Source of the DNA: an uncultured Bacteroidales bacterium
GTDB lineage: Bacteria > Bacteroidota > Bacteroidia > Bacteroidales > WCHB1-69
Assembly: GCA_900317715.1 (NCBI GenBank)
Contig: ONHS01000001.1
Location: 18,316-82,315, forward strand
DNA length: 64,000 bases
Direction of reading: 5' to 3'
In this document: one piece after another, positions 10,652-61,727 of the stretch
How positions within the stretch are numbered: the stretch's first letter is position 1
Layout: each line of letters begins with the position of its first letter
Program-made: the position numbers and the translations under genes
Notes under the pieces: model-generated
What the model was told of the DNA's origin: nothing
What the model saw: only the letters and a program-made list of their open reading frames with translations
Databases searched by the model: none

Positions 10652-10810
10652 GTTTCAAGTTTCAAGTTTCAGGTTTCAGGTTTCAAGTTTCAGGTTTCAA
10701 GGATCAAGGATCAAAGTTCAAAGTTCAAAGTTAATGGTTTTTAGGTATCAAGTTTTAAGTCTCAAGTCTCACGTCTTAAGTCTCAAGTCTTACGTCTTAC
10801 GTCACACGTC
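10652..10810 (-). repeat. heptamer STR block R2 (sense order A then B)
   Basis: Fills the whole mutL-stop to ABC-start spacer. Plus strand reads gtttcaa/gtttcag x7, ggatcaa x2, agttcaa x2 ... gtctcaa/gtcttac/gtcacac units. Confidence 0.9.
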
Positions 10811-12676: not shown

Positions 12677-12769
12677 AGGTTAAAAGGTTTAGAGTTTAAG
12701 GTTTAGGGTTTAGAGTTTAGAGTTTAGAGTTTAGGGGATAAAGGTTGGAAGGTTAGGGGTTAGGGGTTA
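12677..12769 (-). repeat. heptamer STR block R3 (family C only, G-free on sense strand)
   Basis: Plus strand reads ggtttag/agtttag/ggttagg units from the mutL ATG to, and including, the upstream stop codon. Confidence 0.9.
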
Positions 12770-17930: not shown

Positions 17931-17954
17931 CAGCTTAAAAAAATCTGTAGAGAA

Positions 17955-17992: not shown

Positions 17993-18048
17993 AATATTAA
18001 TATAATATAGGTGAAAGTTGACAATATTAATACAAAACCCCAAAGAAT

Positions 18049-18351: not shown

Positions 18352-18353
18352 CA

Positions 18354-19792: not shown

Positions 19793-19884
19793 CAAATTTC
19801 ACGGATTTGGAGGCTGAGAAGAAAAAATTCATCGAACCTTTCCAACTGCATGGTGGCAGGCTGTTTCATACCAAAGTGATGCGT

Positions 19885-19910
19885 GCGCGGCGTACCGCGT
19901 CTTTTTTTTT
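19885..19910 (+). terminator. rho-independent terminator of the STAS-porin unit
   Basis: gcgcgg cgta ccgcgt hairpin followed by c + T9. Confidence 0.65.
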
Positions 19911-20067
19911 GTTAAAAACTTTTTTTATGAAAATAGGGGAAAAAGTGTATTTTGGCAACTGCTTCTTTGACAAGAAGCTTATTCAATATTAACAATTAAA
20001 AATACTGGAAAAAGGTGAAAAAAATATTTTGTAAATCTAAGAAATAAACGCTTGTCAGATACAAAAA

Positions 20068-20105
20068 ATACCGCTTCATTCGAAAATGAAGCGGTATTTT
20101 TTTTG
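20068..20105 (-). terminator. bidirectional rho-independent terminator after the 1507-aa gene
   Basis: 13-bp perfect stem ataccgcttcatt / aatgaagcggtat with a 4-nt loop. It is flanked by an A-run and a T-run. Confidence 0.85.
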
Positions 20106-20128
20106 TACAAAAAGGTAAGCTCACCGGA

Positions 20129-24741: not shown

Positions 24742-24860
24742 GGTTTAGGAGGTTAGAAGGTTCAAAGTTCAAGGTTCAAGGTTCAAGGTTCAAAGTTTCA
24801 GGTTTCAAGTTTCAAGTTTCAGGTTTCAAGTCTTAAATCATAAGTCACACGTCATACGTC
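24742..24860 (-). repeat. heptamer STR block R5 (sense order A, B, C)
   Basis: Sense strand reads gacgtatgacgtgtgacttatga... cttgaaa/cctgaaa x6, ccttgaa x3 ... ctaacctcctaaacc. The block overlaps the last 5 codons and the stop of the dus-like gene. Confidence 0.9.
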
Positions 24861-25762
24861 AAAAACTCCTTCAAGTCACAAATTCTCAACATCTGTTGCA
24901 GTTTTTCATCGGGCATTTGCATGAAAACGGCGAAATAGTGCCATAGTTCTTTCAGATTCGCCAGTGTGCCGGATTCTCCGCGGATGGGTAATAAATCATC
25001 GATAAGATTCTGATAGAAAGCGAGAAAACGACTGTTCTTGTCGCCAACTTCTTGACCTTTAATCTCTTCTGCCAAAAACGGATTTTGAAGCAACCCGCGA
25101 CCTAACATCCAAGCTTCCACATTAGGAAATCGTTCAGAGAGTGCCAGATAGTCTTCTTTGGTGAAAATATCGCCGCTATAGACGATTTTATGATGGGTTA
25201 TGCTGCAAAATTCCTCAAATATGTCCCAATGTGGTTTTCCTTCGTAGATTTCATCGCCCAAACGAGGATGGATGACCAGGAAATCCAATGGATAAGCGTT
25301 CAGCCGTTGCAGTAAAACGCGGCCTTCGTCGGGGTGATGCAGCCCGAGGCGCATCTTCAAGGAAACCTGAAACGATGTTTGTTCGGTGATGGCCGCCACC
25401 ATTCGTTCGATTGTGTCGGGGTGGGGCATGAGCCCGCACCCGCGCGTGTGTCGCACGACAGGGGACGAGGGACATCCGATGTTGATGTTAAAATGCTCGT
25501 ACCCAAACTGTTCGTGCAGCATGTTCATCGTGTCCACGAACTGTTGAGGTTGGTTGCCCATGAGTTGCGGGGTGAGTGGAAGGGCGGTGTTGTTTTCCGG
25601 AAGGATGTCCTGCCACACTTTCGGGCGGAATTTTCCGGCGGACTGCACGGGGAGGAATGGGGACATAAAAAAATCTATGCCGCCAAAATGACGGCATAGT
25701 GTGTTTCTGAATGTACGGGAAGTGATCCCGTGCAGAGGGGCTAACCAGAGTTCCGGTGCCAT
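24845..25762 (-). CDS. tRNA-dihydrouridine synthase family protein, 305 aa
   Basis: Dus-like TIM-barrel motifs (LAPLHGITS..FR, NIGCPS) and typical length. Confidence 0.8.
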   Translation of the reverse strand: MAPELWLAPLHGITSRTFRNTLCRHFGGIDFFMSPFLPVQSAGKFRPKVWQDILPENNTALPLTPQLMGNQPQQFVDTMNMLHEQFGYEHFNINIGCPSSPVVRHTRGCGLMPHPDTIERMVAAITEQTSFQVSLKMRLGLHHPDEGRVLLQRLNAYPLDFLVIHPRLGDEIYEGKPHWDIFEEFCSITHHKIVYSGDIFTKEDYLALSERFPNVEAWMLGRGLLQNPFLAEEIKGQEVGDKNSRFLAFYQNLIDDLLPIRGESGTLANLKELWHYFAVFMQMPDEKLQQMLRICDLKEFLTYDV

Positions 25763-29831: not shown

Positions 29832-30023
29832 CTGTTGGCCGTTAGTCGTTCGCTTGCGAGAAACTAATGCTTTGAGACGTGTGACGTATGACGTGTGATG
29901 TGTGATGTGTGACTTGTGACCCTCGACACCTTGACCCTTGACCCTATACTATTAACCTTCTAACCTTCAACCCCTTAAACCTTCAACCCTAAACCCTAAA
30001 CCTTAAACCAACCCCAAACCAAC
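29832..30023 (+). repeat. heptamer STR block R6 (E-like, A 29874-29920, B 29921-29946, C 29953-30020)
   Basis: Fills the entire stop-to-ATG spacer. The last 78 nt contain no G. Confidence 0.9.
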
Positions 30024-30713
30024 ATGTATTTTATCATTTTCATCGTATTAATGGTCGCGAGCATGGTCATCCAAAAGACCTTGACCTCGCGCATGGAAAA
30101 ATATTCCAAAGTCCCGCTCAGCAGCGGGCTCTCCGGCAAGCAAGTGGCCGAGAAGATGCTGCGTGACAACGGTATTTATGACGTGCAGGTGACCTGCACC
30201 GGCGGTTATCTCACCGACCACTACGACCCGACCAAGAAGACGGTCAACCTGAGTGAAGGTGTCTATGAGGGTCGCAACATCTCCGCCGCTGCCGTCGCTG
30301 CGCACGAGTGCGGACACGCCGTGCAGCACGCCACTGCCTACCGCTGGCTCACCATGCGTTCCAAGCTGGTGCCCGCCGTGCAATTCGGTTCGCAATTCTC
30401 GACATGGATTCTGCTGGCAGGTATCGTCCTCTTAGGATTTACCCAGTATTTAGGACAATGGGTGCTGCTGATTGGCATTGCTCTTTTTGCATTGACCACC
30501 ATCTTCTCCATCATTACCCTGCCTGTGGAGTACAATGCTTCCGAACGTGCCGTCGCTTGGCTCGACGAGCAGGCCATCACCACTGGCGAAGAGACCGTTA
30601 TGGCCAAGGACGCCCTCAAGTGGGCCGCCCGCACCTACCTCATCGCCGCTATTTCCTCGCTGGCCACCTTGTTGTACTATATCTCCATTTACATGGGAGG
30701 AAGAAGGGATTAA
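30024..30713 (+). CDS. YugP-family zinc metallopeptidase, 229 aa
   Basis: HECGHAVQH zinc motif with N- and C-terminal TM helices, typical of the neutral zinc metallopeptidase (YugP) family. Confidence 0.85.
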   Translation: MYFIIFIVLMVASMVIQKTLTSRMEKYSKVPLSSGLSGKQVAEKMLRDNGIYDVQVTCTGGYLTDHYDPTKKTVNLSEGVYEGRNISAAAVAAHECGHAVQHATAYRWLTMRSKLVPAVQFGSQFSTWILLAGIVLLGFTQYLGQWVLLIGIALFALTTIFSIITLPVEYNASERAVAWLDEQAITTGEETVMAKDALKWAARTYLIAAISSLATLLYYISIYMGGRRD

Positions 30714-30743
30714 TTCATAATTCACAATTCATAATTCATAATT
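30711..30743 (+). repeat. heptamer STR block R7 (family F, ttcataa)
   Basis: taattcataattcacaattcataattcataatt spans from the stop codon to 3 nt before the next ATG. Confidence 0.85.
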
Positions 30744-30746
30744 GGA

Positions 30747-31835: not shown

Positions 31836-31975
31836 CTTGACGTATGACGTATGATTTGTGACTTGTGACTTATGACTTATGACTTATGATTAGTGATATA
31901 GACTAGATTCTTGACCCTTGACCTTCGACCCTAAACATTAAACTCTAAACCCTAAACCCCAAACCTTAAACCTTC
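31836..31975 (+). repeat. heptamer STR block R8 (A 31836-31897, B 31910-31931, C 31930-31975)
   Basis: cttgacgtatgacgtatga...gacttatgacttatgacttatga ... cttgacccttgaccttcgaccc taaacattaaactctaaaccctaaaccccaaaccttaaaccttc, then ATG. Confidence 0.9.
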
Positions 31976-32482: not shown

Positions 32483-33423
32483 TGTTTCCCTGGGGCGATG
32501 AGCGGCGGTTTAACGCCTATAGCCGCTATTGCAGAGCGCATTACGGCGGCAGAATCCAGAAACTGCCGGTGGATGCGGGTTTCTCCTGTCCCAACCGTGT
32601 GAGTCGCACGCAAGGCGGTTGCACCTATTGTGCCAACAGTGCCTTTTCTCCATCTTATCTTGCTGATAAAGAAGATGTTGCTTTTCAATTGGAGCGCGGT
32701 AAAACCTTCTTTCAGAAAAGGTATCCCAAGAATAAAGGTTATTTTGCTTATTTTCAGGCATATACTAATACAAATGCACCTGTTGAGGTCCTTCGGCGAA
32801 AGTTCGAGGCGGCTTTGACCGTGGCTGATATTAAGGGACTTGTCATTTCCACCCGTCCTGATTGTCTGCCGGAAGAGGTGTTGGATTACCTTTCCGAGCT
32901 GAACGAGCGCACACACCTGACGATGGAAATAGGCGTGGAAAGTTTTCATAATGAGACGCTTACGCATATCCATCGCGGACATACGGTGGAATGCACTTTC
33001 GAAGCGTTTGAAAAACTGCATCAGCGGAATATTTCCACCAGTGCGCATCTGATTTTCGGTCTGCCCGACGAGAAACCCGAGCAATGGTTGGAGGATGTGC
33101 GGATCCTCAATAGATTGCGGTCCCAGTTCGTGAAATTCCATCAGCTGCAGATTTTCAAGAACACCGCCATGGAAACCGAATATGCGCAACATCCCGAGCG
33201 TTTCCATTCTTTTTCCGCCGATGATTACGTGCAGTTTCTGTGCGATTATCTGGAGCGGATGTCCCCCGAAATTGTCATTGAGCGCTTCTCGGCCGAGGTG
33301 CCACCCCGCTATCTCGCTGTCTCCCAGTGGAATTTGCTGCGCCATGATGCGTTGGTGCGTAAGGTAGAGGAGGAAATGGAGCGGAGGGGAAGCTGGCAGG
33401 GAGGTTCAATTCATAATTCATAA
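32482..33423 (+). CDS. TIGR01212-type radical SAM protein, 313 aa
   Basis: QKLPVDAGFSCPNR.....GGCTYC cluster motif. ATG 32482 overlaps the upstream TGA (TGATG). The last codons lie in the F repeat. Confidence 0.8.
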   Translation: MFPWGDERRFNAYSRYCRAHYGGRIQKLPVDAGFSCPNRVSRTQGGCTYCANSAFSPSYLADKEDVAFQLERGKTFFQKRYPKNKGYFAYFQAYTNTNAPVEVLRRKFEAALTVADIKGLVISTRPDCLPEEVLDYLSELNERTHLTMEIGVESFHNETLTHIHRGHTVECTFEAFEKLHQRNISTSAHLIFGLPDEKPEQWLEDVRILNRLRSQFVKFHQLQIFKNTAMETEYAQHPERFHSFSADDYVQFLCDYLERMSPEIVIERFSAEVPPRYLAVSQWNLLRHDALVRKVEEEMERRGSWQGGSIHNS

Positions 33424-33432
33424 TTCATAATT
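33407..33432 (+). repeat. heptamer STR block R9a (family F)
   Basis: caattcataattcataattcataatt encodes the last 5 residues (IHNS plus stop) of the radical SAM gene. Confidence 0.85.
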
Positions 33433-33474
33433 GGCGCGCTACGTACCAAGGATTTCGTTTCTGTAACGCATAAG

Positions 33475-33558
33475 GTTCATCGATTATTCATCGTCTTTCA
33501 TCCTCTTTCATCGCCTTTCGTCGCCTTTCATCGCCTTTCCTCGTATTTCATCGTATTT
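33475..33558 (+). repeat. decamer tandem repeat R9b (ctttcatcgc x ~8)
   Basis: 10-nt period: ctttcatcct ctttcatcgc ctttcgtcgc ctttcatcgc ctttcctcgt atttcatcgt. Confidence 0.85.
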
Positions 33559-33655: not shown

Positions 33656-35200
33656 ATGTTGATAAGAACGAATAATTGTGCATTGATGGGGGTGGCCGCT
33701 ATACCCATCACAGTGGAAGTCAATGTGGACAACGGCATTGGTTTCTTTTTGGTCGGGTTGCCCGACAGTGCGGTGAAGGAGAGTCAGCAACGCATAGACA
33801 CGGCCTTGCATATTTATGGATACAAGATACCGGGGCGGAAAATCGTGGTGAACATGGCGCCGGCAGATATTCGCAAAGAGGGCTCTGCGTATGACTTGAC
33901 GTTGGCCATCGGCATTTTGGCCGCGTCGGAGCAGATTGCCGGTGCGGATATGCTGGAAGACTACTATATTATGGGTGAGTTGTCGCTAGATGGCTCGCTG
34001 CAACCCGTGCGCGGCGCGTTGCCTATTGCGTTGGAGGCGCGGCGGCACAAGAAAAAAGGGTTGATTTTGCCGATTCAGAACGCTCGGGAGGCTGCCATCG
34101 TGCAGGGAATAGATATTCTCGGAGCAACTGATATCAAGCAAGTTATTGACTTTTTTGATAAGAAAATACCGATTGAACCTACGCGCATAGACGTGGCCAA
34201 CGCCTTCCGCGACAGTCTGGATCATTACGAATATGATTTTGCAGACGTGAAGGGTCAGGAGAACATCAAGCGGGCGATGGAGATTGCGGCCGCAGGTTCC
34301 CATAACGTGATTTTGATCGGTCCCCCTGGCTCAGGTAAGACCATGTTAGCCAAGCGGTTGCCGTCGATTTTGCCGCCATTGTGCTTGGAGGAAGCCTTGG
34401 AAACGACCAAGATTCATTCCGTGGCGGGTAAGATGAGCCGTTATGCATCCATTATCTCCACCCGGCCGTTCCGAGCCCCTCATCATACGATTAGCGATGT
34501 TGCGCTCGTGGGTGGCGGCACGCATCCGCAGCCTGGGGAAATCTCACTCGCGCATAATGGGGTGCTCTTTTTGGATGAGTTGCCGGAATTTAAGCGTCAG
34601 GTGTTGGAGGTGATGCGTCAGCCGTTGGAAGAACGGCGCGTAACCATCTCGCGATCAAAGTATTCCGTGGAGTTTCCAGCCTCTTTCATGTTCATCGCGG
34701 CGATGAATCCTTGTCCGTGCGGCAACTACAACCACCCGACCATCCGCTGTACCTGTAAACCCAACGAGGTGCAGAATTACTTGAGTAAGATCTCGGGCCC
34801 TTTAATGGACAGGATCGATCTGCATGTAGAGGTCGTGCCGGTCAGTCACGAGGAATTGGCCTCCAACAAGCCCACGGAGCGCAGTGCCGACATCCGCAAA
34901 CGGGTGGTGGCGGCGCGCGAAATCCAGAAACAGCGGTTCGAAGGATGTACGGGGTTGTTCGCGAATGCGCAGATGAGCAGCCGGATGGTGCGCGAATATT
35001 GCCAGATAGACGCGACGGGGCAGATGCTGCTGAAGCAGGCGATGGACCGTCTCGGACTCTCCGCCCGCGCTTACGACCGCATCCTGAAGGTGGCCCGCAC
35101 CATCGCCGACCTCGACGGCAGCCCGAACATCGAAATCGGGCATTTGAGCGAGGCGATTAATTTCCGGAATCTGGATAGGGATAATTGGGGAAGGAGATAG
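33656..35200 (+). CDS. comM: YifB/ComM-family Mg-chelatase-like AAA+ ATPase, 514 aa
   Basis: N-terminal Lon-protease-like domain, Walker A GPPGSGKT, LFLDELPEF Walker B and a C-terminal ChlI-like region. Confidence 0.9.
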   Translation: MLIRTNNCALMGVAAIPITVEVNVDNGIGFFLVGLPDSAVKESQQRIDTALHIYGYKIPGRKIVVNMAPADIRKEGSAYDLTLAIGILAASEQIAGADMLEDYYIMGELSLDGSLQPVRGALPIALEARRHKKKGLILPIQNAREAAIVQGIDILGATDIKQVIDFFDKKIPIEPTRIDVANAFRDSLDHYEYDFADVKGQENIKRAMEIAAAGSHNVILIGPPGSGKTMLAKRLPSILPPLCLEEALETTKIHSVAGKMSRYASIISTRPFRAPHHTISDVALVGGGTHPQPGEISLAHNGVLFLDELPEFKRQVLEVMRQPLEERRVTISRSKYSVEFPASFMFIAAMNPCPCGNYNHPTIRCTCKPNEVQNYLSKISGPLMDRIDLHVEVVPVSHEELASNKPTERSADIRKRVVAAREIQKQRFEGCTGLFANAQMSSRMVREYCQIDATGQMLLKQAMDRLGLSARAYDRILKVARTIADLDGSPNIEIGHLSEAINFRNLDRDNWGRR

Positions 35201-35279
35201 TAATTCATAATTCATAATTCATAATTCATAATGCATAATGCATAATTACAATTCATAATTATTATTCACAATTCATAAT
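35201..35279 (+). repeat. heptamer STR block R10a (family F: ttcataa / tgcataa)
   Basis: taattcataattcataattcataattcataatgcataatgcataattacaattcataattattattcacaattcataatt. Confidence 0.9.
35216..35247. repeat. left arm of 32-nt inverted repeat flanking the four-helix-bundle gene
   Basis: aattcataattcataatgcataatgcataatt matches the reverse complement of 35652-35683 at 31 of 32 positions. Confidence 0.9.
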
Positions 35280-35290
35280 TAGGTAAAGGG

Positions 35291-35653
35291 ATGAAAGACA
35301 TTAAAGATAATATAATCGTAGTGAAGAGTACTGAGTTCGCAGTAGAGATTGTAAAAGCATGTAATTGGTTGCGAAAAGAAAAAAAAGAATGGGTGATGTC
35401 TGAGCAATTGTTGAAAAGTGGTACTAGCATTGGGGCTAACATTCGTGAGGGAATCAGGGGACAGAGCAGTGCTGATTTTTATGCTAAATTCAATGTTTCA
35501 CTCAAAGAAGCAAGTGAAACAGATTATTGGTTAGAACTATTATTTTTGAGTGGATATTTTGATAAAACTCTGTATGATGATCTGAATTTAAAATGCCAAG
35601 AATTAATACGATTGTTGATGTCCATAGTAAAACACAAAGATACCCCCAAATAA
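35291..35653 (+). CDS. four-helix-bundle protein (23S rRNA intervening-sequence protein / Avd-like family), 120 aa
   Basis: Length and motifs (SGTSIGANI.EG, F..K...SLKEA.ET.YWLELL) are typical of the TIGR02436-type family. Confidence 0.75.
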   Translation: MKDIKDNIIVVKSTEFAVEIVKACNWLRKEKKEWVMSEQLLKSGTSIGANIREGIRGQSSADFYAKFNVSLKEASETDYWLELLFLSGYFDKTLYDDLNLKCQELIRLLMSIVKHKDTPK

Positions 35654-35683
35654 TTATGCATTATGCATTATGAATTGTGAATT
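35652..35683. repeat. right arm of the 32-nt inverted repeat (family F in inverted orientation)
   Basis: aattatgcattatgcattatgaattgtgaatt overlaps the TAA stop of the four-helix-bundle gene. Confidence 0.9.
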
Positions 35684-35692
35684 AATTTTCAG

Positions 35693-35700
35693 TATTTTTG
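35693..35700 (+). promoter_or_regulatory. -7 box TATTTTTG upstream of murG
   Basis: Matches TAnnTTTG, 21 nt before ATG 35721. Confidence 0.55.
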
Positions 35701-35720
35701 CGGCGCAAAACCAAACCATT

Positions 35721-36827
35721 ATGGAAAAGAGATATATCATCAGCGGCGGCGGTACTGGCGGGCACATTTTCCCCGCGTTGGCCATCGCTAACAAGATCAA
35801 AGCAGAAAACCCTGATGCCAAGATTCTCTTCATCGGGGCAAGCGATAAAATGGAAATGCGGCGCGTGCCGGAAGCTGGCTATCCTATTGAAGGACTGGAG
35901 ATTTACGGCATCCATCGCGACTTTTCACCTAGTGGCATTATGTGCAATTTGCGTCTGCCGGTGGTGATGATGAAGGCCATGAGTAAGGCCAAGAAAATCA
36001 TGCGCGAGTTCAAGCCCAATCTCGCCATCGGGGTTGGCGGATTCGCCAGCGGTCCCGCGCTAAAAGCTGCATCGCAACTCGGAATCCCGACACTTTTGCA
36101 GGAACAAAACTCCTACCCTGGGGTTACCAACAAGATGCTGGCCAAGAAAGCCAAGACCATCTGCGTGGCCTACGACGGTCTCGACCGCTTCTTCCCGCCC
36201 GAAAAAATCATCAAAACGGGCAACCCCATCCGCAAGGAAATCCTGCAGTTGGAGCGCAAATCGCCTGCCGCATACGAATATTTCAACTTTTCACCCGACA
36301 AGAAAACCGTGTTGGTGGTAGGCGGAAGTCTAGGTGCCCGCACCTTCAACCAGACCATGGCCGCCAACTTGGACGCTTTCCGTAAAGCAGACCTTCAACT
36401 GCTTTGGCAAACGGGCGAGCAATTCTACAAGAACATCGATCCTGAACTGCTTAAACAGCAGGACGAGCACATCCATATCGTGCCGTTTATCAAGAACATG
36501 AACGATGCCTACAGCATGGCTGATGTCATCATATCCCGTGCGGGTGCATTGGCGTTGGCTGAATTGACCATCGTGGGCGCACCTACCATCCTCGTGCCGT
36601 TCCCCTACGCCGCCGAAGACCACCAGACCTTCAACGCCAAGGCTCTCTCCACAAAAGATGCCGCCCTGCTCATTTCCGACAAGGAAGCCCCGGAGAAGCT
36701 GATACCCACGCTGTTACAACTTGTCAATGACCCGCACCGAATGGAAACCCTTGGCACGAACATCAAGACCTTCGCCCTGCCGAATGCGATTGATTTGATT
36801 TATGATGAGATTGTGAAGTTGGCGTGA
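35721..36827 (+). CDS. murG: UDP-N-acetylglucosamine--N-acetylmuramyl-(pentapeptide) pyrophosphoryl-undecaprenol GlcNAc transferase MurG, 368 aa
   Basis: GGGTGGHIFPALAIA N-terminal signature and GT28 C-terminal domain (GGSLGA, RAGA). Start moved to ATG 35721, because the track's N-terminal extension reads through the inverted F repeat. Confidence 0.9.
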   Translation: MEKRYIISGGGTGGHIFPALAIANKIKAENPDAKILFIGASDKMEMRRVPEAGYPIEGLEIYGIHRDFSPSGIMCNLRLPVVMMKAMSKAKKIMREFKPNLAIGVGGFASGPALKAASQLGIPTLLQEQNSYPGVTNKMLAKKAKTICVAYDGLDRFFPPEKIIKTGNPIRKEILQLERKSPAAYEYFNFSPDKKTVLVVGGSLGARTFNQTMAANLDAFRKADLQLLWQTGEQFYKNIDPELLKQQDEHIHIVPFIKNMNDAYSMADVIISRAGALALAELTIVGAPTILVPFPYAAEDHQTFNAKALSTKDAALLISDKEAPEKLIPTLLQLVNDPHRMETLGTNIKTFALPNAIDLIYDEIVKLA

Positions 36828-37030
36828 TGTGTGACGTGTGATGTGTGACGTGTGACGTGTGACGTGTGACGTGTGACGTGTGACGTGTGACGTGTGACGT
36901 GTGATAGTTGCTATAATCAAAAGTCATAAATCATAAATCAAAAGTCAAACGTCATAAGTCAAACTTCAAAAGTCAAACGTCATAAGTCAAACTTCATAAG
37001 TCAAACGTCAAAAAATAAACCTTAACCCCC
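36825..37030 (+). repeat. heptamer STR block R11 (A: tgtgacg x ~11 at 36825-36905; aagtcaa/acgtcat/acttcaa units at 36918-37010; short C)
   Basis: Starts with the murG stop TGA and ends 6 nt before ATG 37037. Confidence 0.9.
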
Positions 37031-37036
37031 AAAAAA

Positions 37037-37528
37037 ATGAACGGAGACCCGAAATTATACAAACTTCTTGACGAACTGCATATTCCATACGAATATCTGG
37101 AGCATCCGCCGGCACCGACCATTGAGATTGCCAAACAGTACTGGGCGGGGCACGATGCCAAGCATTGCAAGAACCTCTTTTTCCGCAATCACAAGGGCAA
37201 CCAGCACTATCTGGTCTGCCTTGATTGCGACCAAGACATGAACATCCACGATATCGAGAAACAGTTGCATCAGGGCAAGCTGAGCTTTGCCTCCGAGAAG
37301 CGGCTGATGAAGTATTTGGGTGTAATGCCTGGTTCTGTGACACCGTTCGGACTCATCAATGACACGGATCATCACGTGCATCTTTTCTTGGACAAGCAGT
37401 TGCATAATGCCGATCGTGTGAGCTTCCACCCGTGCGAAAACACCGCCTCGCTCATCGTGAAGCGCGAGGATTTCGAACGATTCTTGCAATATATGGGCAA
37501 TCCGTACGAATGGATAGACCTGTATTAA
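37037..37528 (+). CDS. YbaK/ProX-like aminoacyl-tRNA deacylase domain protein, 163 aa
   Basis: YLGVMPGSVTPFGLIND and overall length are typical of prolyl-tRNA-synthetase-associated editing domains. Confidence 0.75.
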   Translation: MNGDPKLYKLLDELHIPYEYLEHPPAPTIEIAKQYWAGHDAKHCKNLFFRNHKGNQHYLVCLDCDQDMNIHDIEKQLHQGKLSFASEKRLMKYLGVMPGSVTPFGLINDTDHHVHLFLDKQLHNADRVSFHPCENTASLIVKREDFERFLQYMGNPYEWIDLY

Positions 37529-38986: not shown

Positions 38987-41698
38987 ATGAAAAATTTGTT
39001 TATTATCCAATGGTTGATGTTGATTTCAATTCTGACTGTTGTGGCACAGGAGCCTACTCTTCCCTACACGGCCACTTTTTCCACGTCGGAAGGTTGGGTG
39101 CTGAACAATGGTGATGCTCAGAATTACTGGATATTAGGTACCTCTGGCAGTAACAATGCACTCCTTGTGACCAACAACGGTGCCACCCCCACCTATTCCT
39201 ACACCCGGAGTAATGTTGCTGCGGAAAAGACATTTGTGGTCGGGGATGCGGACAAGATTATTGTCTCTTTCGATCTGAAATGCGGCGGCAAGTACAACAA
39301 AGACTTTCTGAAGATGTTTTTGGCGCCTCCTTCCCAGATCTACGAGGGTGGAATCGCCTACTCGTGGGGTGTCAGTACGAATTCCCTCTATGCAGCCAAC
39401 TTCAGCGACCACTTCGACATGACCAACACGCCAAACTATCCTTACATTATCAATTTGACAGATGGCAAAACTATCCATTTGGATGTTCGGATGAACAATC
39501 CGATTGCCAATCCCGATACCAACTCAATTGCAAAACTGGTTTTTGGATGGGTTAATGACTACGGCAGCACCTACGATCACGGAATCCAGCCCGCACCTAC
39601 AATCACCAATTTGCGTTTGAAAAGAGAGACCTGTACCCCTCTTACGGGATTGTCCGTCTCCAACATCCAGAGCCATTCAGTAGAGTTGTCGTGGGATATG
39701 CCTGAGGGTGGCGCCTCTGACTATATTGTCCAATATGCTAAAGATGGCCAGAATTGGAACGATGCCTATATTACCACCGTGAACGTGCAGGACACGTCTG
39801 TGACACTGACAGGTTTGCAGTCTATAACGAAATATTGGGTAAGGGTGGCGCGCAATTGCGGTAGCGATACCAGTGTCTGGATCAAACAATCCTTCACTAC
39901 ACTTTGTGAATATATTGACACCCTTCCGTACATCTGCGACTTATCTCATGTCTCAAGCACTATGCATCCGATTCCTGTTTGTTGGGAAAGAGGCCCAGGA
40001 AGCTGCTGCGACCCTGTTATTAGCTATGGTGCTATCAATCTTTGGATTCCCAACACCATCTCGATGCCGCATTTGAACAGACAGCTCATTGATATAAATA
40101 CTGTGGAGGTCTCCTTCTCCGCCAGAAGTGAAGCGAACAATGGCACTTTGATCATTGGTGTGATGTCCGATGCCAGCGAAGACTCCACGTTTGTGGCTGT
40201 TGACACGCTAAGCCTGACTACATCATACGAGACTTATTTGGTTCCGATAAACGGTTACACTGGAGTTGGGGACAGAGTCTCTTTCAAATGTATCGACCAC
40301 AGCGACATATACGTGAAAGATGTGATTCTTGACCATACGCTTTCGTGCCCAAGGCCATACAATTTGGAATCGTCAGATCCAACGCATAACAGCATCAAAT
40401 TGAGTTGGACGGGAACAGAATCATCCTGTAACCTATACTACCGAATCAAGGGGGACAATGCATTTACGGTTGTGCCGAACGTATCGTTGAATAACAATGG
40501 CGTTTACACTTTGTCGGGACTGACCTCGGGTACAATTTACCAATGGTATGTGGCGGCACGATGCGATGACGGCACCGAAGCGGCAAGTCACGAACTCCAC
40601 GATTTTTCTACTCTTTGCGATCCAATTGTTGAGCTTCCCGCGACTTGGGACTTTGAATATTATAACAATGAGACCATGTTGCCTGTATGTTGGAAAACAT
40701 TATCCGCATCTGCTACCATTAGGACGGACGAGTCTCACAGTGGTACACACGTGCTGCGGCTGTACTACATAGATAACGGATCAAATATTGTCGTACTCCC
40801 CAAAGTGGAGGACAATCTCTATCCGATTGATAATTTGCAAATTAAGTTCTATGCCAAGAATATGGGAACTTATAGCGATTGGCATGTTCAGGTCATCGGT
40901 GGACTGATTACGAATCCAGAGAACAGTTCCACCTTTATTCCTAACGACACAATTGATGTGATTGGTGCGGCAGGCGGAAGTTTCCAGGAATATACGCTTC
41001 GCGTGGCGGATTATCATTGGGCGGATGGCTATCCCGCCATAAGGTTTGTGAGAGTTAATGGCCCAATGTGGCTTCACATTGACGACCTGACATTAGAGGT
41101 CGTTGATACCGCAATTCTCCCGGTGCGCCCATCTGTGATGACTGTTGGCGCAGACCCCATCGGACAGACAACCGCGACACTGAACGCCACCATCAACAAT
41201 CCGGACAATCTGCTTGTTTCTGCAGCGGGATTTGAATGGCGTGATATTTCGGACAGCGCGTTTACGCAGGTCGATTGTTCCGTCTCGAATGACGCTTTCA
41301 TGACCGAACTGACCAGCTTGACCGCAAACATGACTTACGCCTACAGGGCATTCATCACCTATTTTGGTATAACCGACTATAGTGAGGAAACATTCTTTGC
41401 CACTTTGCCTAATAATAATGACTCGGTCCATGTTGACGAGTATTTGCTTAGCAGCATCAAACTCTATCCCAATCCGGCAAATGAGTACGTCAATCTACAA
41501 TGTACAATGAGCGATGTACAATTGGAAAGTGTTGAGGTGATAGATGTTTACGGCAAGGTAGTCCGTACCGTTGTAGGGGCGAATAATCATTCACCCCTAC
41601 AGACCCGCATTAATGTTTCGGGATTGGCCGGTGGCATCTATTTTGTGCGCGTGACTACCGACAAGGGAATGGTGATGAAGAAATTCGTGAAGAAATAA
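38987..41698 (+). CDS. T9SS-secreted FN3-repeat surface protein, 903 aa
   Basis: Signal peptide, LPYTATF... beta-sandwich-like module, several FN3-like units (..W....G....Y.V.Y...W..), and C-terminal LYPNPANEYV...GIYFVRVTTDKGMVMKKFVKK. Confidence 0.8.
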   Translation: MKNLFIIQWLMLISILTVVAQEPTLPYTATFSTSEGWVLNNGDAQNYWILGTSGSNNALLVTNNGATPTYSYTRSNVAAEKTFVVGDADKIIVSFDLKCGGKYNKDFLKMFLAPPSQIYEGGIAYSWGVSTNSLYAANFSDHFDMTNTPNYPYIINLTDGKTIHLDVRMNNPIANPDTNSIAKLVFGWVNDYGSTYDHGIQPAPTITNLRLKRETCTPLTGLSVSNIQSHSVELSWDMPEGGASDYIVQYAKDGQNWNDAYITTVNVQDTSVTLTGLQSITKYWVRVARNCGSDTSVWIKQSFTTLCEYIDTLPYICDLSHVSSTMHPIPVCWERGPGSCCDPVISYGAINLWIPNTISMPHLNRQLIDINTVEVSFSARSEANNGTLIIGVMSDASEDSTFVAVDTLSLTTSYETYLVPINGYTGVGDRVSFKCIDHSDIYVKDVILDHTLSCPRPYNLESSDPTHNSIKLSWTGTESSCNLYYRIKGDNAFTVVPNVSLNNNGVYTLSGLTSGTIYQWYVAARCDDGTEAASHELHDFSTLCDPIVELPATWDFEYYNNETMLPVCWKTLSASATIRTDESHSGTHVLRLYYIDNGSNIVVLPKVEDNLYPIDNLQIKFYAKNMGTYSDWHVQVIGGLITNPENSSTFIPNDTIDVIGAAGGSFQEYTLRVADYHWADGYPAIRFVRVNGPMWLHIDDLTLEVVDTAILPVRPSVMTVGADPIGQTTATLNATINNPDNLLVSAAGFEWRDISDSAFTQVDCSVSNDAFMTELTSLTANMTYAYRAFITYFGITDYSEETFFATLPNNNDSVHVDEYLLSSIKLYPNPANEYVNLQCTMSDVQLESVEVIDVYGKVVRTVVGANNHSPLQTRINVSGLAGGIYFVRVTTDKGMVMKKFVKK

Positions 41699-41727: not shown

Positions 41728-44700
41728 ATGAAAAAGTCTTGTATAATAGGATGTTTGGTTTTAATGGCCGCACTGTCTATGCAGACAGGAAAGTTGGAGG
41801 CGCAATCCCCTTGTCCTCCGGTAAGTGGCATCACATTGTTGTCAGTGACGGAGCACACGGCCGAAATCACGTGGACAGCCGGTGGGAGTGAAAATTACTG
41901 GTTTTATTGCTTTACCACAGATTTCACAACACCCGCCCCGGCACCAGCTAACGAGGGTTGGATGCATACGGACAATCCTCTTCTGTTGGACTCTCTTGCT
42001 GATGGTCGTTGTTACAGACTTTGGATCAGGGCCGGATGCGGTGCGGGAAATGTCAGTTCTGCCCAACCCTTTGAGTTTTGGACGGAGTGCCAAGAGATAA
42101 CCTTGCCTTACACAGAGGATTTTGACCATCCAGACAGCATATTCTACCTCGGTTTCCAAAATTCAGGGCCGCTGCCACACTGCTGGCAGAAACTGAGCCC
42201 TTACCTCAATTCGGGTCCCTATTGTACCGGCGACAGCTGTCTCACGTTTTACAGCACCAACAACGAGTACAAGGTAGCCATTCTACCGCGCCTTTCCAAC
42301 GACCTGCTGATTTCCCACCTCAAGATGAGCTTTGATTGCAAGAAGTTGCAATATTACTATCCATCCTCTTTGATAGTAGGTGTGATGGACAACCCCACCG
42401 ATCTTTCTTCGTTCACGCCTGTGGATACGGTTTACACTCCTGATGTCAACTATTGGGATTGGCATCACAGGGAGGTTTTTTTCGAAAACTACACGGGAAC
42501 GGGACATTATATTGCTTTGAAATGTCAGTATTCCTCACCAAATTATTTCAAGGTGGACAACTTGACGATTGACACTGCGTTCACCTGCCATACACCTACA
42601 AATCTGATGGCTACGGGTATTTCACCCTCATCCATGTATGTGACTTGGGAGGGTGAGGCCGGTGAGAATGAGTGGCAGGTGGCGATTGTGCCCGATTATT
42701 CTACACTTCCCGATAGCAGCAGTGTCGTCACCGTGCATGAGAAGCATCATCTCTTCACAAACCTCACAGACAGCAATTATGTGTTTTTTGTGCGCACCCA
42801 CTGTTCCAACGGCTGGGGTTACAGCGATTGGGTCTCCATACCCGTGACCTCTTTTGCTTATCAGCCCGCCACGGTTCCCTATTCCCATAATTTCGAAGCT
42901 GGGAGCGAGAATGCCGCGTGGCGAATGGAGACCGGAAATCCCGTGAGTCGGTGGCAAATCGGCATTCCTAACGGTTACAGCGACTCATTGCTCTTTATTA
43001 CCAACAACGGTGCGGATGCCACCTACGGCAGCACGATAGCCGAGGCTTGGGCGTACCGGGACTTCCAGCTAAGCGGTGCCACCGAGTACGAGGTCAGGTT
43101 CAGATGGCTGTGTAACGGGCATCCCTCCTACGCTTATTTGCAGGCAATGATCGGGAAGCCCGCTCCGATATTGGTTTCCACAAACTATTTCGATGATGTT
43201 TATCCCGAGGGTTCTGTTCTGATAGGTAAATATGCACGACAGAATGATTGGAAGACAACCCGTTACGTGTTAGGAAGCGAGAATGACAATACGGTGCAAC
43301 GTCTTTACTTCCGATGGCGTAATGTGTATAATTCCGTGTATCCGCCCGGTGCGATTATCGACCACGTGGAAATCATCCCTTACCATTGCGTCCGACCGAC
43401 TGACCTTACGTTGGATTTTGTGGACGATCACAATGCCATCATCTCCTTTTCCCCTGCATTGAATGATATAACCACTTGGGAGTATGTTGTTTTGGAAGGC
43501 GACAGTTTCCCGAATGATTCCCTCCCCGTCCTCACCACTTCAAACACGTCTGTTTTTCTCTCCGGGCTGTCAGAAAAAACCTCCTACACGCTCTATATTC
43601 GCGGTGTCTGCAGCAACGGTTATCACTCCTCGTGGGCTGAGTTCAAGTTCAGGACAGAATGCTCCCCCCTTGTGCTGCCATACGTGGAGACATTCGACGT
43701 GGCAGGTGGCAGCAAGTTTGACTGTTGGTCGTTCCCCGCTCCCGAGACAGGCATACAACATCCATCCATCTATACACCAACTCATGATTGGGAGGTGGAC
43801 ACCAATCCTGTTCTCCGTTTTGCGGGTATCTACTCCACAGAAGCTTTGGCCATACTTCCCGAAGTGCCTTCCGATTATTCGCTCAACAGCCTGCGACTAT
43901 CATTTTTAATGCGCTCGAATACTGACAGCATCCACTTGATTGTGGGAGTGATGTCTGACCCAGATGATTTCTCGACTTTTATCCCAGTGGACAGTGTTCA
44001 AATAGTCGAGCCATTTTATATTGACCGTAAGGAGATTTTCTTTGACCATTACCAGGGCTCGGGAACGTACATTGCCATTCTCTCCGATTATGTAGGAGAC
44101 AACACTTGCCACCTCGATGTTGACGATCTGGTATTGGAAATCGCGCCCTCATGTCTTGCTCCGTCTGGATTAAAGGCAATCAACATGGGCCAAAACTCGG
44201 TAACGCTCTTGTGGACGCCTGCCAATGGCGAACAAGCTTGGGAAATCGCATACGGCACGAACAATTTCGATCCAGATTCAACGGAAAACATCTGTGTGGT
44301 CAATACGAGCCCATTCACGCTGACAGGGCTTTCTGACGGGACTTTCTACGGCTTCTACGTGCGTGCCGTGTGCTCGCCAGGGGAATACAGCGAATGGAGC
44401 CCGCTCGGCTACGCTTTCACTCGTTGTGCCCCGGTTTCAGTGCTTGGTCAGCCGTACCAGGAATCTTTCGACAGCTATACAACAGGGATTTCCACATCGC
44501 TTTACACGCCTATAGAATACCCCTATATCTCGTACCCGGACTGCTGGTCGTTCTTGAATCTCCATGCCCTTGTCGGATATCCTGACTGGACTCTTCCCGC
44601 GGCGTTTTTGTCCAACAAAAGCACTTTAATTGTTTGGGGCAACAGTCTGCACCTCGTAAACAGCAAGGTCACACCCTTGTATGCGGTTCTTCCGGAATTT

Positions 44701-45534: not shown

Positions 45535-45542
45535 TATTTTTG
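45535..45542 (+). promoter_or_regulatory. -7 box TATTTTTG upstream of the 3714-aa gene
   Basis: Matches TAnnTTTG immediately after the upstream stop codon and 87 nt before ATG 45629. STR block R12 lies between the box and the ATG. Confidence 0.5.
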
Positions 45543-45552
45543 CACCCAAAAC

Positions 45553-45617
45553 CTTGAAACTTGAACTTTGAATCTTGAAACTTGAATCTTGAATCTTGAA
45601 ACCTTAAAACCTTAAAA
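45553..45617 (+). repeat. heptamer STR block R12 (B: cttgaaa/ctttgaa/tcttgaa x7; then ccttaaaa x2)
   Basis: ccttgaaacttgaactttgaatcttgaaacttgaatcttgaatcttgaaaccttaaaaccttaaaaa. Confidence 0.9.
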
Positions 45618-45628
45618 ATCATATTATT

Positions 45629-59621: not shown

Positions 59622-59779
59622 GAAGGTTTAGGGTTTAGGGGGAAAATAAAGTTAGCAGTTAGCAGATAGTAGTTAGTAGTTAGCGGGGAGTAGGGAGAAG
59701 GGAATAGGGAATAGTCATACGTCAAAAGTCTAAGTTTAAGTTTATGTCTATGTCTAGGTTCAAAGTTCAAAGTCAAAGT
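59622..59779 (-). repeat. heptamer STR block R13 (sense order B, A-like, D, E, C)
   Basis: Fills the whole uvrC-stop to peptidase-ATG spacer. The sense strand ends ...ccccctaaaccctaaaccttcATG. Confidence 0.9.
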
Positions 59780-61552: not shown

Positions 61553-61727
61553 GGAGGGTGAGGGTTTAAGGTTGAGGGTTTAGGGGGTTAATAGGTTAGG
61601 GTCGAGGGTCGAGGGAAAAGGGAGTAGGGAATAGTTCAAGGTTCAAAGTTCAAAGTTCAAAGTTCAAGGTTCAAAGTCAAAAGTCAAAGTTCAAAGTTCA
61701 AAGTCAGCTAACAGCTAACAGCCAGTT
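61553..61727 (-). repeat. heptamer STR block R14 (sense order E, B, D, B-like, C)
   Basis: Sense strand reads ctggctgttagctgttagctga ctttgaa units x ~10, ctattccctactccc, cctcgaccctcgaccc, ...ccctaaaccctcaaccttaaaccctcaccctccATG. Confidence 0.9.

What the first reader, a model, noticed from the sequence alone, without database searches (positions are those of the whole stretch)
36825..37030. Most families (A, B, C, E, F) have heptamers built as a stop triplet plus four bases, so arrays close all three frames on the sense strand
Aligned on the triplet, the sense-strand units read TGA-CGTG, TGA-CTTA, TGA-GACG, TGA-AACT, TGA-ACCT, TGA-CCCT, TAA-ACCC, TAA-ACCT, TAA-CTGC and TAA-TTCA. Because 7 is not a multiple of 3, three consecutive units place a stop in every frame within 21 nt. 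For families A and B the antisense strand has no stops at all. This is why the ORF track shows spurious ORFs such as 10635-10823 (+) and 36714-36920 (-) running through them. Family D carries its stop (TAG) only on the opposite strand, and the decamer family (33475-33558) has none on the sense strand, so the rule is not universal. Possible roles are an all-frame translational insulator between cistrons, or simply the only repeats tolerated next to genes.
Basis: seen in the sequence. Interest (0 to 1): 0.7.

Follow-up and report, generated by a model that had tools for sequence, protein, structure and literature searches.

The report
Stop-bearing heptamer repeats between genes
The spacers between same-direction genes in this uncultured rumen Bacteroidales genome are filled with fast-evolving 7-base tandem repeats whose units nearly all carry TGA or TAA on the mRNA strand, but this holds only for this lineage's related repeat family and is not a general rule or a shown translational insulator.

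Summary
At 36825-36904, (TGACGTG)n puts 4 stops in each + frame and none on the - strand. In the window, 22 of 24 amplified heptamer units between co-directional genes carry a sense-strand stop, against 11.5 expected from their own letters. Antisense is 10 against 14.6.

The rule does not generalise. It weakens in close relatives (17/22 vs 13.5). It vanishes in other Bacteroidales (17/29 vs 15.7) and other phyla (9/18 vs 8.3). (TGACGTG)n elsewhere lies 12 sense : 14 antisense. In relatives, 7 of 19 arrays directly behind stop codons show no stop at any offset in the two unit positions after the native stop. The second half of the cited locus is the inverted complement of the first, so its dense stops are antisense.

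The window's 24 units collapse into 4 related clusters with a T-R-A..AC core. Arrays are strand-oriented (43:7), G/T-rich behind stops and A/C-rich, nearly G-free in front of starts. Array leaders are almost unfolded (-1.6 vs -9.05 kcal/mol). Array-only spacers lack the promoter -7 box.

Best reading: slippage-born heptanucleotide repeats serve as intercistronic spacers in a Shine-Dalgarno-less bacterium. The stops are a lineage-specific, perhaps weakly constrained, property of one unit family. The all-frame stop property was already noted for TAACTGA repeats (PMC4679880).

The parts
35670..36827 (+). murG-like glycosyltransferase gene. Its TGA stop (36825-36827) is the first unit of the array, in register with it.
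   Evidence: Pfam Glyco_transf_28 and Glyco_tran_28_C. 98% identical to L001. Stop in register.
36824..36904 (+). Array A, (TGACGTG) x about 11.6 on the mRNA strand. Stops 4/4/4 in the + frames and none on the - strand.
   Evidence: TRF, sequence, frame counts.
36905..36916 (+). Short non-repeat linker at the tip of the hairpin (TGATAGTTGCTATAA region).
   Evidence: Sequence, fold.
36913..37013 (+). Array B, (GTCAAAC/GTCATAA/TTCAAAA...)n. It is the inverted complement of TGAC-type units. Dense stops are on the - strand (5/5/4); the + strand has 3/2/1 stops and an 84-nt open run. It pairs with array A.
   Evidence: TRF, frame counts. RNA fold -76.1 kcal/mol, z -7.6.
37014..37036 (+). G-free A/C-rich leader (AAATAAACCTTAACCCCCAAAAAA) directly before the ybaK start codon.
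   Evidence: Sequence. Composition of array leaders.
37037..37528 (+). YbaK/aminoacyl-tRNA-editing-domain gene downstream of the spacer. No -7 promoter box lies upstream.
   Evidence: Pfam tRNA_edit. TAnnTTTG scan.
10652..10810 (-). mutL to ABC-ATPase spacer, entirely heptamers on the - sense strand (TGACGTG, TAAGACG, TGAGACT, then TTGAACT, then TGAAACC/TGAAACT). Sense stops 8/6/8; antisense 1/0/3.
12677..12766 (-). Spacer made of (TAACCCC/TAAACTC/TAAACCC) units on the sense strand. The native TAA stop is in register with the array. Predicted MFE is 0.
24754..24861 (-). Array behind the dus-like gene, running from TGACTTA to TTGAAAC/TTGAACC units. It is followed by a -7 box (TATCTTTG) for the next gene.
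29832..30023 (+). Spacer with a unit gradient: CTGTTGG-type, then TGACGTG-type, then TTGACCC, then TAAACCC/TAAACCT, then ATG.
30711..30746 (+). (TAATTCA)n spacer that starts with the native TAA stop of the Zn-peptidase gene.
31836..31975 (+). Spacer with the same gradient: TGACGTA/TGACTTA, then TTGACCC, then TAAACCC/TAAACCT, then ATG. MFE z-score +4.3.
35201..35290 (+). (TAATTCA/TAATGCA)n array. It forms the left arm of the inverted repeat around the PF05635 gene.
35651..35684 (+). (TGAATTA/TGCATTA)n, the right arm of that inverted repeat. It overlaps the murG start region.
45535..45628 (+). A -7 box (TATTTTTG) followed by a (CTTGAAA/CTTGAAT)n array, forming the 5' leader of the 3714-aa T9SS FN3 protein gene.
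59622..59779 (-). uvrC to M14 peptidase spacer. Mixed units including TATTCCC (no sense stop) and a period-6 stretch. One sense frame stays open for 156 nt, so this is an exception to the rule.
61553..61727 (-). lptD/OstA-like to uvrC spacer: GCTGTTA, then TTTGAAC, then CCCTCGA, then TAAACCC-type units.

Best explanation
The locus is the murG-ybaK spacer of an uncultured rumen Bacteroidales. Like about a dozen other spacers in the window, it is built from heptanucleotide tandem arrays, i.e. long simple-sequence repeats that grow and shrink by replication slippage.

Shown:
- The arrays sit almost only between co-directional or convergent genes.
- They are hypervariable between species of about 85% DNA identity.
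- They are strongly oriented relative to transcription.
- They are G/T-rich behind stop codons and A/C-rich, nearly G-free, AUG-poor and structure-free in front of start codons.
- Array-only spacers lack the Bacteroidetes -7 promoter box.

Inferred: the arrays are transcribed as intercistronic spacers or leaders. Their orientation and composition are filtered by what a Shine-Dalgarno-independent ribosome needs, namely an open, AUG-poor landing site.

In this genome nearly all amplified units belong to one related superfamily with the core T-R-A(N0-2)AC. Each unit therefore carries TGA or TAA on the mRNA strand. Because 7 is not a multiple of 3, three copies close every frame. The all-frame closure is thus a real property of this unit family that is specific to the lineage. 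It may be weakly maintained here, but it is not a general design rule of heptamer arrays and is not shown to act as an insulator.

At 36825-37013 specifically, two mutually inverted arrays form a long imperfect RNA/DNA hairpin. Only the first arm follows the sense-stop rule.
For: Organism and genes.

Arrays and period specificity.

Location: arrays cover 12% of co-directional, 10% of convergent and 1.9% of divergent intergenic DNA in the clade.

Hypervariability of orthologous spacers: the murG-ybaK spacer is 36-139 nt with different units in L001-L005, against 209 nt here.

Orientation: 43:7 overall. This includes units with stops on both strands: AAACCCT 5:0, AAACCTT 4:1, AACCCCT 2:0. The AACCAAT duplex occurs in both orientations, 3:2. 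Its G/T-rich strand (TGGTTAT) lies directly behind stop codons in L005 and L081, which fits the composition gradient.

Composition: first 40 nt after stops, G 0.25, T 0.35, C 0.13. Last 40 nt before starts, A 0.41, C 0.33, G 0.04.

Structure:
- Leaders -50..+20 with arrays average -1.6 kcal/mol, against -9.05 without arrays (p 6e-6) and -14.5 for random windows.
- 9 of 10 array spacers fold no better than their own shuffles.
- Sense MFE is 0 in 10/11 array leaders, while their antisense folds at -0.2 to -8.8 in 10 of 11.

ATG: 0.09 per 40 nt in array leaders against 0.37 in non-array leaders.

Promoter box: array-only spacers lack TAnnTTTG apart from one chance-like match inside the 10652-10810 array; most non-array spacers have it.

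Literature: in Bacteroidetes, initiation is tuned by mRNA structure and AUG is avoided near starts (PMC6847099).

Relatedness of units: 4 clusters in the window, 24 links against 4.6 expected by chance.

Lineage specificity of the stop excess.

Hairpin.

Arrays appear in RNA-run contigs, including 36875-36964 with 3 mismatches.
Against: - Within the window, variants linked by one substitution keep a sense stop 46/47 times against 33.4 expected, while antisense stops are under-kept at 8/15 against 11.4. The T and A of TGA are among the best-conserved positions between neighbouring copies. Some strand-specific constraint on T-R-A therefore exists, and I cannot tell 'stop' from 'motif'.
- Array spacers close all frames far more often than ordinary spacers: 10/11 vs 42/121 before starts, and 15/24 vs 21/108 after stops.
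- Co-transcription is inferred from a missing motif only. No strand-resolved RNA or ribosome data were available.
- Gene models are home-made, samples are small and units are non-independent.
- Taken over all arrays, sense RNA is no less structured than antisense. The structure argument holds only for pre-start arrays.
Confidence: 0.6

Rival explanations
1. All-frame translational insulator. Units are kept stop-bearing on the mRNA strand by selection, so that read-through or frameshifted ribosomes, or ribosomes starting spuriously in the spacer, always terminate within 21 nt before the next cistron.
For: - Window excess 22/24 vs 11.5, with antisense depleted at 10 vs 14.6.
- Variants keep the stop 46/47 vs 33.4 expected.
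- The native stop is in register with the array in 3 of 4 window cases and in 6 of 19 in the clade, against 2.7 expected.
- Arrays close all frames more often than ordinary spacers.
- The same property was noted for forward TAACTGA repeats upstream of start codons (PMC4679880).
Against: - No excess in other Bacteroidales (17/29 vs 15.7), other Bacteroidota (10/33 vs 13.3) or other phyla (9/18 vs 8.3). These share the same SD-less or general translation logic.
- Orientation of (TGACGTG)n is 12:14 and of (TAATTCA)n 27:24 elsewhere.
- 7/19 arrays directly behind stop codons in close relatives have no stop in the two unit positions after the native stop.
- Array B of the cited locus and spacer 59622-59779 leave long open sense frames.
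- Between neighbouring copies TGA changes to TTA (18 times) more often than to TAA (12 times). AAC, GAA and GAC are conserved at least as well as TGA.
Confidence: 0.2
2. No selection on stops at all. A/T-rich composition makes about half of all heptamers stop-bearing, and the window's units share the triplet by common descent from a few founder units. Some founders were seeded by duplication of the native stop codon plus 4 nt. The apparent rule is then a small effective sample.
For: - Composition-only expectation is 47%.
- The effective number of independent unit clusters is 4 in the window (3 stop-bearing) and 9 in the clade (6 stop-bearing, p 0.32).
- The excess decays with phylogenetic distance.
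- Several arrays are in register with the native stop.
Against: - Retention of the stop across 46/47 single-substitution links against 33.4 expected, with antisense stops under-retained, is hard to get from neutral drift.
- Support for seeding is weak: 6 in register against 2.7 expected.
Confidence: 0.15
3. Tolerance filter. Stop-free arrays next to genes are deleterious, for example because slippage across the stop codon would extend the protein, so only stop-bearing arrays survive.
For: - Arrays inside ORFs always lie with their stop-free strand as the coding strand: 14/14 for TGACGTG in other phyla.
- Some arrays overlap the last codons of genes (33404-33436, 19697-19703, 24845).
Against: - Arrays lacking a stop in their first units directly abut stop codons in L004, L005, L006, L010, L024 and L081, 7 of 19 cases.
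- Array B at 36913-37013 and TATTCCC arrays are tolerated in the window.
Confidence: 0.05
4. Arrayed binding sites. The T-R-A(N0-2)AC core repeated every 7 nt is read on the mRNA by a single-strand RNA-binding protein (cold-shock/S1-like, one protein per heptamer, as proposed for TAACTGA repeats) or by Rho on the C-rich, G-poor pre-start arrays. Copy number would tune the expression of the downstream gene.
For: - Strand orientation 43:7.
- Conserved AAC/GAC/T..A core.
- C 0.33 and G 0.04 in unstructured pre-start arrays.
- Copy-number variation between relatives.
- The idea is discussed in PMC4679880. Heptanucleotide repeat number controls hmw expression in H. influenzae (titles and abstracts of PMC8262952 and PMC12721329).
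Against: - No protein partner was identified.
- Many different units coexist, so no single motif stands out.
- Flanking genes are unrelated housekeeping genes.
- Nothing here tests binding.
Confidence: 0.1

Closest known systems
Long simple sequence repeats with heptanucleotide units (Mrazek et al. 2007, as summarised in PMC4679880) and cyanobacterial STRR heptamer arrays (from my own knowledge: Mazel et al. 1990)
   Same: - Head-to-tail 7-nt units.
- Far more abundant than other periods.
- Sporadic phylogenetic distribution.
- Mainly intergenic.
- Variable between strains.
- Slippage origin proposed.
- The same units, (TGACGTG)n and (TAATTCA)n, recur in many phyla, cyanobacteria included.
   Different: - Here arrays fill whole intercistronic spacers, 12% of co-directional intergenic DNA.
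- They are strongly strand-oriented and show a G/T-rich to A/C-rich gradient from stop to start.
- I found no description of this for rumen Bacteroidales.
TAACTGA direct repeats of Beggiatoaceae, cyanobacteria and five Bacteroidetes (MacGregor 2015, PMC4679880)
   Same: - Heptamer direct repeats in 'forward' orientation immediately upstream of start codons lacking SD sequences.
- Explicitly noted to give stops in all three frames and to overlap upstream stop codons.
- Other heptamer repeats share the same intergenic regions in some Bacteroidetes.
   Different: - The TAACTGA unit is absent from the window.
- Here many related units occur rather than one.
- Arrays here are much longer, up to about 12-20 copies against mostly 2-6.
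Phase-variable heptanucleotide promoter/5'-UTR repeats (H. influenzae hmw1A/hmw2A; PMC8262952, PMC12721329)
   Same: 7-nt SSR in a non-coding region upstream of a gene. Copy number changes by slippage.
   Different: - Those sit at surface-adhesin genes and act as contingency loci. Here the neighbours are housekeeping genes (murG, mutL, uvrC, dus).
- The arrays here are a genome-wide spacer feature.
- Within-population length variation could not be measured.
REP/BIME-type intergenic stem-loops and intrinsic terminators (from my own knowledge)
   Same: The 36825-37013 inverted arrays give a strong intercistronic stem-loop (-76 kcal/mol, z -7.6).
   Different: - No U-tract follows it and no terminator-like hit was found.
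- No Rfam family matches.
- The stem is built from heptamer repeats.
- The other array spacers are unstructured.

Membership tests
Heptanucleotide long simple sequence repeats (LSSR / STRR-like) | Head-to-tail tandem copies of a 7-nt unit | tested here: met
   TRF finds 36824-36904 with period 7, 11.6 copies and 95% matches, plus about 20 further period-7 arrays.
Heptanucleotide long simple sequence repeats (LSSR / STRR-like) | Longer or more frequent than expected for the genome, with period 7 favoured over other periods | tested here: met
   17.3 nt/kb for period 7, against 0-1.2 nt/kb for periods 5, 6, 8, 9 and 10. Most other Bacteroidota loci show about 0.
Heptanucleotide long simple sequence repeats (LSSR / STRR-like) | Predominantly outside coding sequence | tested here: met
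   Of 68 clade arrays, 55 are co-directional, 6 convergent, 3 divergent and 3 genic.
Heptanucleotide long simple sequence repeats (LSSR / STRR-like) | Rapid change of copy number or unit between related genomes | tested here: met
   Orthologous murG-ybaK and mutL spacers differ in length (36-209 nt) and in units, while their flanks are 83-88% identical.
TAACTGA-type forward repeats upstream of start codons (PMC4679880) | Unit TAACTGA | tested here: not met
   No match to TAACTGATAACTGA with up to 2 mismatches in the window.
TAACTGA-type forward repeats upstream of start codons (PMC4679880) | Forward orientation, ending within a few nt of a start codon without an SD sequence | tested here: met
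   Eleven clade leaders end in arrays abutting the start codon. The organism belongs to the SD-less Bacteroidota.
TAACTGA-type forward repeats upstream of start codons (PMC4679880) | Stops in all three frames in the forward orientation | tested here: met
   10/11 array leaders are closed in all frames. In the window, 12 of 15 array spacers are closed.
All-frame translational insulator (proposed, not an established family) | Stop-bearing sense strand is a consistent property of equivalent arrays | tested here: not met
   Other Bacteroidales 17/29 vs 15.7 expected; other taxa 9/18 vs 8.3; other Bacteroidota 10/33 vs 13.3. In relatives, 7/19 post-stop arrays lack a stop in their first units.
All-frame translational insulator (proposed, not an established family) | Ribosomes actually terminate in the arrays | not testable with these tools
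   Only assembled contigs of metatranscriptomes were available. There are no ribosome profiling data.
Phase-variation (contingency) SSR | Within-population length polymorphism that switches a surface or virulence gene | tested here: inconclusive
   Logan contigs break at the arrays, so copy number cannot be read. Neighbouring genes are housekeeping genes.
Intrinsic terminator | G+C-rich stem-loop followed by a U-run | tested here: not met
   The hairpin is present, but no terminator-like site lies in 36825-37036 and an A-run follows the stem.

The most novel reading that the evidence does not exclude
In this rumen Bacteroidales lineage, slippage-prone heptamer arrays have been domesticated as modular intercistronic cassettes. 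T-R-A-core units behind a gene stop ribosomes in any frame. G-free A/C-rich units in front of the next gene give a structure-free, AUG-free landing pad for Shine-Dalgarno-independent initiation, or a Rho-loading site. Copy-number slippage would then tune the coupling between neighbouring cistrons.
Probability: 0.15. Interest if true: 0.6.

Novelty: new member of a known kind. Interest (0 to 1): 0.35.

Why it matters
If the arrays are only tolerated slippage products, the practical lessons are these:
- They create spurious antisense ORFs.
- They break short-read assemblies.
- They mark hypervariable spacers in rumen Bacteroidales MAGs.

If the strand orientation and the G-free, unfolded leaders are selected, the arrays would be a simple natural solution to making open translation-initiation regions in bacteria that ignore Shine-Dalgarno sequences. 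They would also offer a ready-made, copy-number-tunable spacer for operon design in Bacteroidota.

The stop-in-every-frame idea itself is arithmetic and was already noted for TAACTGA repeats. It does not hold outside this lineage.

Tried and rejected
- Rfam at gathering thresholds found only two tRNAs and nothing in the spacers.
- The sigma-70 promoter and intrinsic-terminator scan found no terminator in the cited spacer. The promoter-like hits inside TAATTCA arrays are consensus artefacts of the repeat.
- TAACTGA repeats are absent.
- Seeding of arrays from the native stop codon has only weak support: 6 in register against 2.7 expected.
- A purifying-selection test on neighbouring copies shows the stop triplet is not the best-conserved triplet, and TGA changes mostly to the non-stop TTA.
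- Comparing sense with antisense folding over all arrays shows no difference, p 0.46. Only pre-start arrays differ.
- Metatranscriptome and metagenome runs are held only as contigs that break at the repeats. Transcript ends, co-transcription and copy-number polymorphism therefore could not be read.
- The second genome scan (MutL) brought only two close relatives.
- Literature searches found no description of these arrays in rumen Bacteroidales.
Full report
**What is there.**
The window comes from an uncultured rumen Bacteroidales. Its MurG (35670-36827) is 98% identical to a MAG contig, L001. The finding lies in the 209-nt spacer between murG and a ybaK/tRNA-editing-domain gene at 37037-37528.

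Tandem Repeats Finder reports (GTGACGT) x11.6 at 36824-36904. It also reports a 7/14/28-nt array at 36913-37013 and about twenty more period-7 arrays across the window.

Reading every intergenic region shows that many spacers between co-directional genes are heptamers from the upstream stop codon to the downstream ATG. Examples are 10652-10810, 12677-12766, 29832-30023, 31836-31975, 59622-59779 and 61553-61727.

Period 7 is specific: 17.3 nt/kb, against 0-1.2 nt/kb for periods 5, 6, 8, 9 and 10. The same holds in relatives with at least 85% MurG identity, and only sporadically elsewhere in Bacteroidota.

**Check of the observation.**
- (TGACGTG)n at 36825-36904 has 4/4/4 stops in the three + frames, with a longest open run of 18 nt. 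It has none on the - strand.
- Array B (36913-37013) is the inverted complement of TGAC-type units. Its dense stops (5/5/4) are therefore on the - strand, and the + strand keeps an 84-nt open run.
- The two arrays pair into a long imperfect hairpin: -76.1 kcal/mol, z -7.6, with no shuffle folding as well.
- No U-tract or terminator-like site follows the hairpin.
- Of 15 array-bearing spacers, 12 are closed in all sense frames. Spacer 59622-59779, which contains a period-6 stretch, leaves one frame open for 156 nt.

**Is it more than chance?**
I took as units all heptamers with at least two perfect consecutive copies in arrays between co-directional genes. I oriented them to the gene strand and grouped them by rotation.
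- In the window plus 19 related loci, 39 of 46 classes carry a sense stop and 25 an antisense stop. A composition-only null gives 47%.
- I then permuted the letters of each unit. The window gave 22/24 against 11.5 expected, with antisense 10 against 14.6.
- Units seen only in relatives gave 17/22 against 13.5, with antisense 15 against 9.0.
- Other Bacteroidota gave 10/33 against 13.3.

Two collection scans provided out-of-sample tests.
- (TGACGTG)3 occurs in Streptomyces, Chloroflexota, Verrucomicrobiota, Acidobacteriota, Planctomycetota, Bacteroidia and others. Between co-directional genes it lies 12 times sense and 14 times antisense. All 14 copies inside ORFs use the stop-free strand as the coding strand.
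- (TAATTCA)3 also occurs in many phyla and lies 27 sense: 24 antisense.
- Neighbouring non-bait arrays in those loci show no excess: Bacteroidales 17/29 vs 15.7, other taxa 9/18 vs 8.3.
- The same rough gene calling still recovers the window signal, 16/18 vs 8.4.

The rule is therefore lineage-specific. It is partly met inside it. Seven of 19 arrays that begin directly behind a stop codon in close relatives have no stop at any offset in the two unit positions after the native stop. Their units are of the GCTGTTG, TGGTTAT/GGGTTAT, GACTGGA and GCAGTTG types.

**Non-independence, and a residual signal.**
The 24 window units form 4 single-substitution clusters (17, 4, 2, 1), with 24 links against 4.6 expected by chance. 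The 46 clade units form 9 clusters, 6 of them mostly stop-bearing (p 0.32). The largest cluster shares a core T-R-A(N0-2)AC.

Between neighbouring copies, AAC, GAA and GAC are at least as conserved as TGA. TGA changes to TTA (18 times) more often than to TAA (12 times).

Links between amplified units nevertheless keep a sense stop 46/47 times in the window against 33.4 expected. Antisense stops are kept 8/15 against 11.4. In the TAATTCA-bait loci there is no such effect, 44/50 against 41.0. Some strand-specific constraint on the T-R-A core therefore seems to act in this genome. I cannot separate 'stop codon' from 'sequence motif'.

**What better explains the anatomy.**
- *Orientation.* Unit classes are oriented 43:7 relative to the genes. 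Classes with stops on both strands are included: AAACCCT 5:0, AAACCTT 4:1, AACCCCT 2:0. Stops are therefore not what sets the orientation.
- *Both orientations of one duplex.* The AACCAAT duplex occurs in both orientations, 3:2. Its G/T-rich strand (TGGTTAT) lies directly behind stop codons in L005 and L081.
- *Composition.* The first 40 nt of array-bearing spacers have G 0.25, T 0.35 and C 0.13. The last 40 nt have A 0.41, C 0.33 and G 0.04. Non-array leaders have G 0.15.
- *Structure.* Leaders from -50 to +20 that end in arrays are almost unfolded. Their mean is -1.6 kcal/mol, against -9.05 for non-array leaders (p 6e-6) and -14.5 for random windows. Nine of ten array spacers in the window fold no better than their own shuffles; the cited locus is the one strong exception.
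- *Sense versus antisense.* For pre-start arrays the sense RNA has MFE 0 in 10 of 11 cases. In 10 of those 11 the opposite strand would fold at -0.2 to -8.8 kcal/mol.
- *AUG.* It is rarer in array leaders, 0.09 against 0.37 per 40 nt.
- *Promoters.* Apart from one chance-like match inside the 10652-10810 array, array-only spacers lack the Bacteroidetes -7 box TAnnTTTG. Most non-array spacers carry it 28-130 nt upstream of the start.
- *Location.* Arrays cover 12% of co-directional, 10% of convergent and only 1.9% of divergent intergenic DNA in the clade.

These features match what is known for Bacteroidetes. Ribosomes there ignore SD sequences, initiation is tuned by mRNA structure, and AUG is avoided near starts (PMC6847099).

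I therefore read the arrays as slippage-generated intercistronic spacers or leaders. Their orientation and composition are filtered at the mRNA level. Co-transcription and the filter are inferences; the sequence properties are shown.

**Dynamics and abundance.**
- Orthologous spacers keep arrays but change units and length. The murG-ybaK spacer is 36-139 nt of AACCTTA/AACCCCT/AACCTTG units in L001-L005, against 209 nt here, with flanks 83-88% identical.
- In rumen metagenomes, the word depth over (TAATTCA)n is 10,000-23,000 against about 18 for the flanks, with many different flanking sequences. It is about 340-560 over the 36796-36963 stretch, which spans (TGACGTG)n and the start of array B.
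- Metatranscriptome contigs contain the arrays, including 36875-36964 with 3 mismatches. These runs are held as contigs only and may contain DNA, so transcript ends could not be read.

**Comparison with what is known.**
Heptanucleotide units are the most abundant class of long simple sequence repeats in many prokaryotes, and a slippage origin has been proposed for them (Mrazek 2007, as summarised in PMC4679880; also PMC4692102).

MacGregor (PMC4679880) described TAACTGA heptamer repeats in forward orientation just upstream of SD-less start codons in Beggiatoaceae, cyanobacteria and five Bacteroidetes. That paper states that forward repeats give stops in all three frames and can overlap upstream stop codons. 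It also notes other heptamer repeats in the same Bacteroidetes spacers. TAACTGA itself is absent here.

I found no paper on such arrays in rumen Bacteroidales, and no Rfam family matches.

**Verdict.**
The interpretation as a general all-frame insulator, or as the only tolerated repeat type, is not supported.

The thing itself is a new, very dense example of a known kind of repeat. It has a strand-oriented stop-to-start composition gradient that deserves an experimental test.

Limits: home-made gene models, small and non-independent samples, assembly-derived copy numbers, and no ribosome or strand-specific RNA data.

Noticed in passing
35215-35248 and 35651-35684 (around gene 35291-35653): A small PF05635 gene ('23S rRNA intervening-sequence / four-helix-bundle protein') is bracketed by a 34-nt, 97% complementary inverted repeat made of heptamers. 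The variant units TAATGCA are mirrored, so this is a true inverted duplication. It could be a cassette or an invertible segment.
   Followed up: partly
36825-37013: The two arrays of the cited locus are mutually inverted and fold into a long imperfect hairpin (-76 kcal/mol, z -7.6) with no U-tail. Contigs of three DNA runs and two RNA runs from rumen samples carry the same array-loop-array architecture with a different loop (TTTCTTTA).
   Followed up: partly
35200-35283 and 36796-36963: In rumen metagenomes, the word depth over (TAATTCA)n is 10,000-23,000 and over the 36796-36963 stretch about 340-560, against about 18 for the unique flanks. Flanking sequences there are highly diverse. These units are massively multi-copy across rumen genomes, and assemblies break at them.
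   Followed up: partly
L161-L240 and L271-L350: Identical heptamer arrays, (TGACGTG)3 and (TAATTCA)3, occur in many unrelated phyla: Streptomyces, Chloroflexota, Verrucomicrobiota, cyanobacteria, Lentisphaerota, Treponema and others.
   Followed up: partly
window 35670-57933 vs L001-L005: Gene order differs from the closest relatives. There the giant FN3/T9SS protein gene (ortholog of 45629-56773) is followed directly by murG, ybaK and the ortholog of 56884-57933. Here murG-ybaK lies about 8 kb upstream of the giant gene. The breakpoints fall in repeat-bearing spacers.
   Followed up: partly
38987-41698, 41728-45534, 45629-56773, 20129-24652, 57948-59621: Five proteins carry a type IX secretion C-terminal sorting domain, among them a 3714-aa FN3-rich giant. 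The giant's 5' leader is a -7 box (TATTTTTG at 45535) followed by a (CTTGAAA)n array.
   Followed up: no
33487-33558: A decamer array (TTCATCGTCT x7.2) with no sense stop lies in a 232-nt spacer that also carries a -7 box 33 nt before the next gene.
   Followed up: no
12689-12771, 19697-19791, 61554-61608: On the strand opposite to the C-rich sense units, the repeats read (TTTAGGG)-like, the same as the plant telomere unit. In 19697-19791 this G-rich strand is the sense strand of the upstream gene. G-quadruplex potential was not examined.
   Followed up: no
59726-59785: A period-6 stretch (AAGTCT x9.7) inside a heptamer spacer keeps one sense frame open for 156 nt. It shows how a 6-nt period defeats the all-frame closure.
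   Followed up: yes
10811-12676: A complete MutL gene lies between two heptamer-filled spacers, so the abundance of arrays is not obviously linked to loss of this mismatch-repair gene.
   Followed up: no
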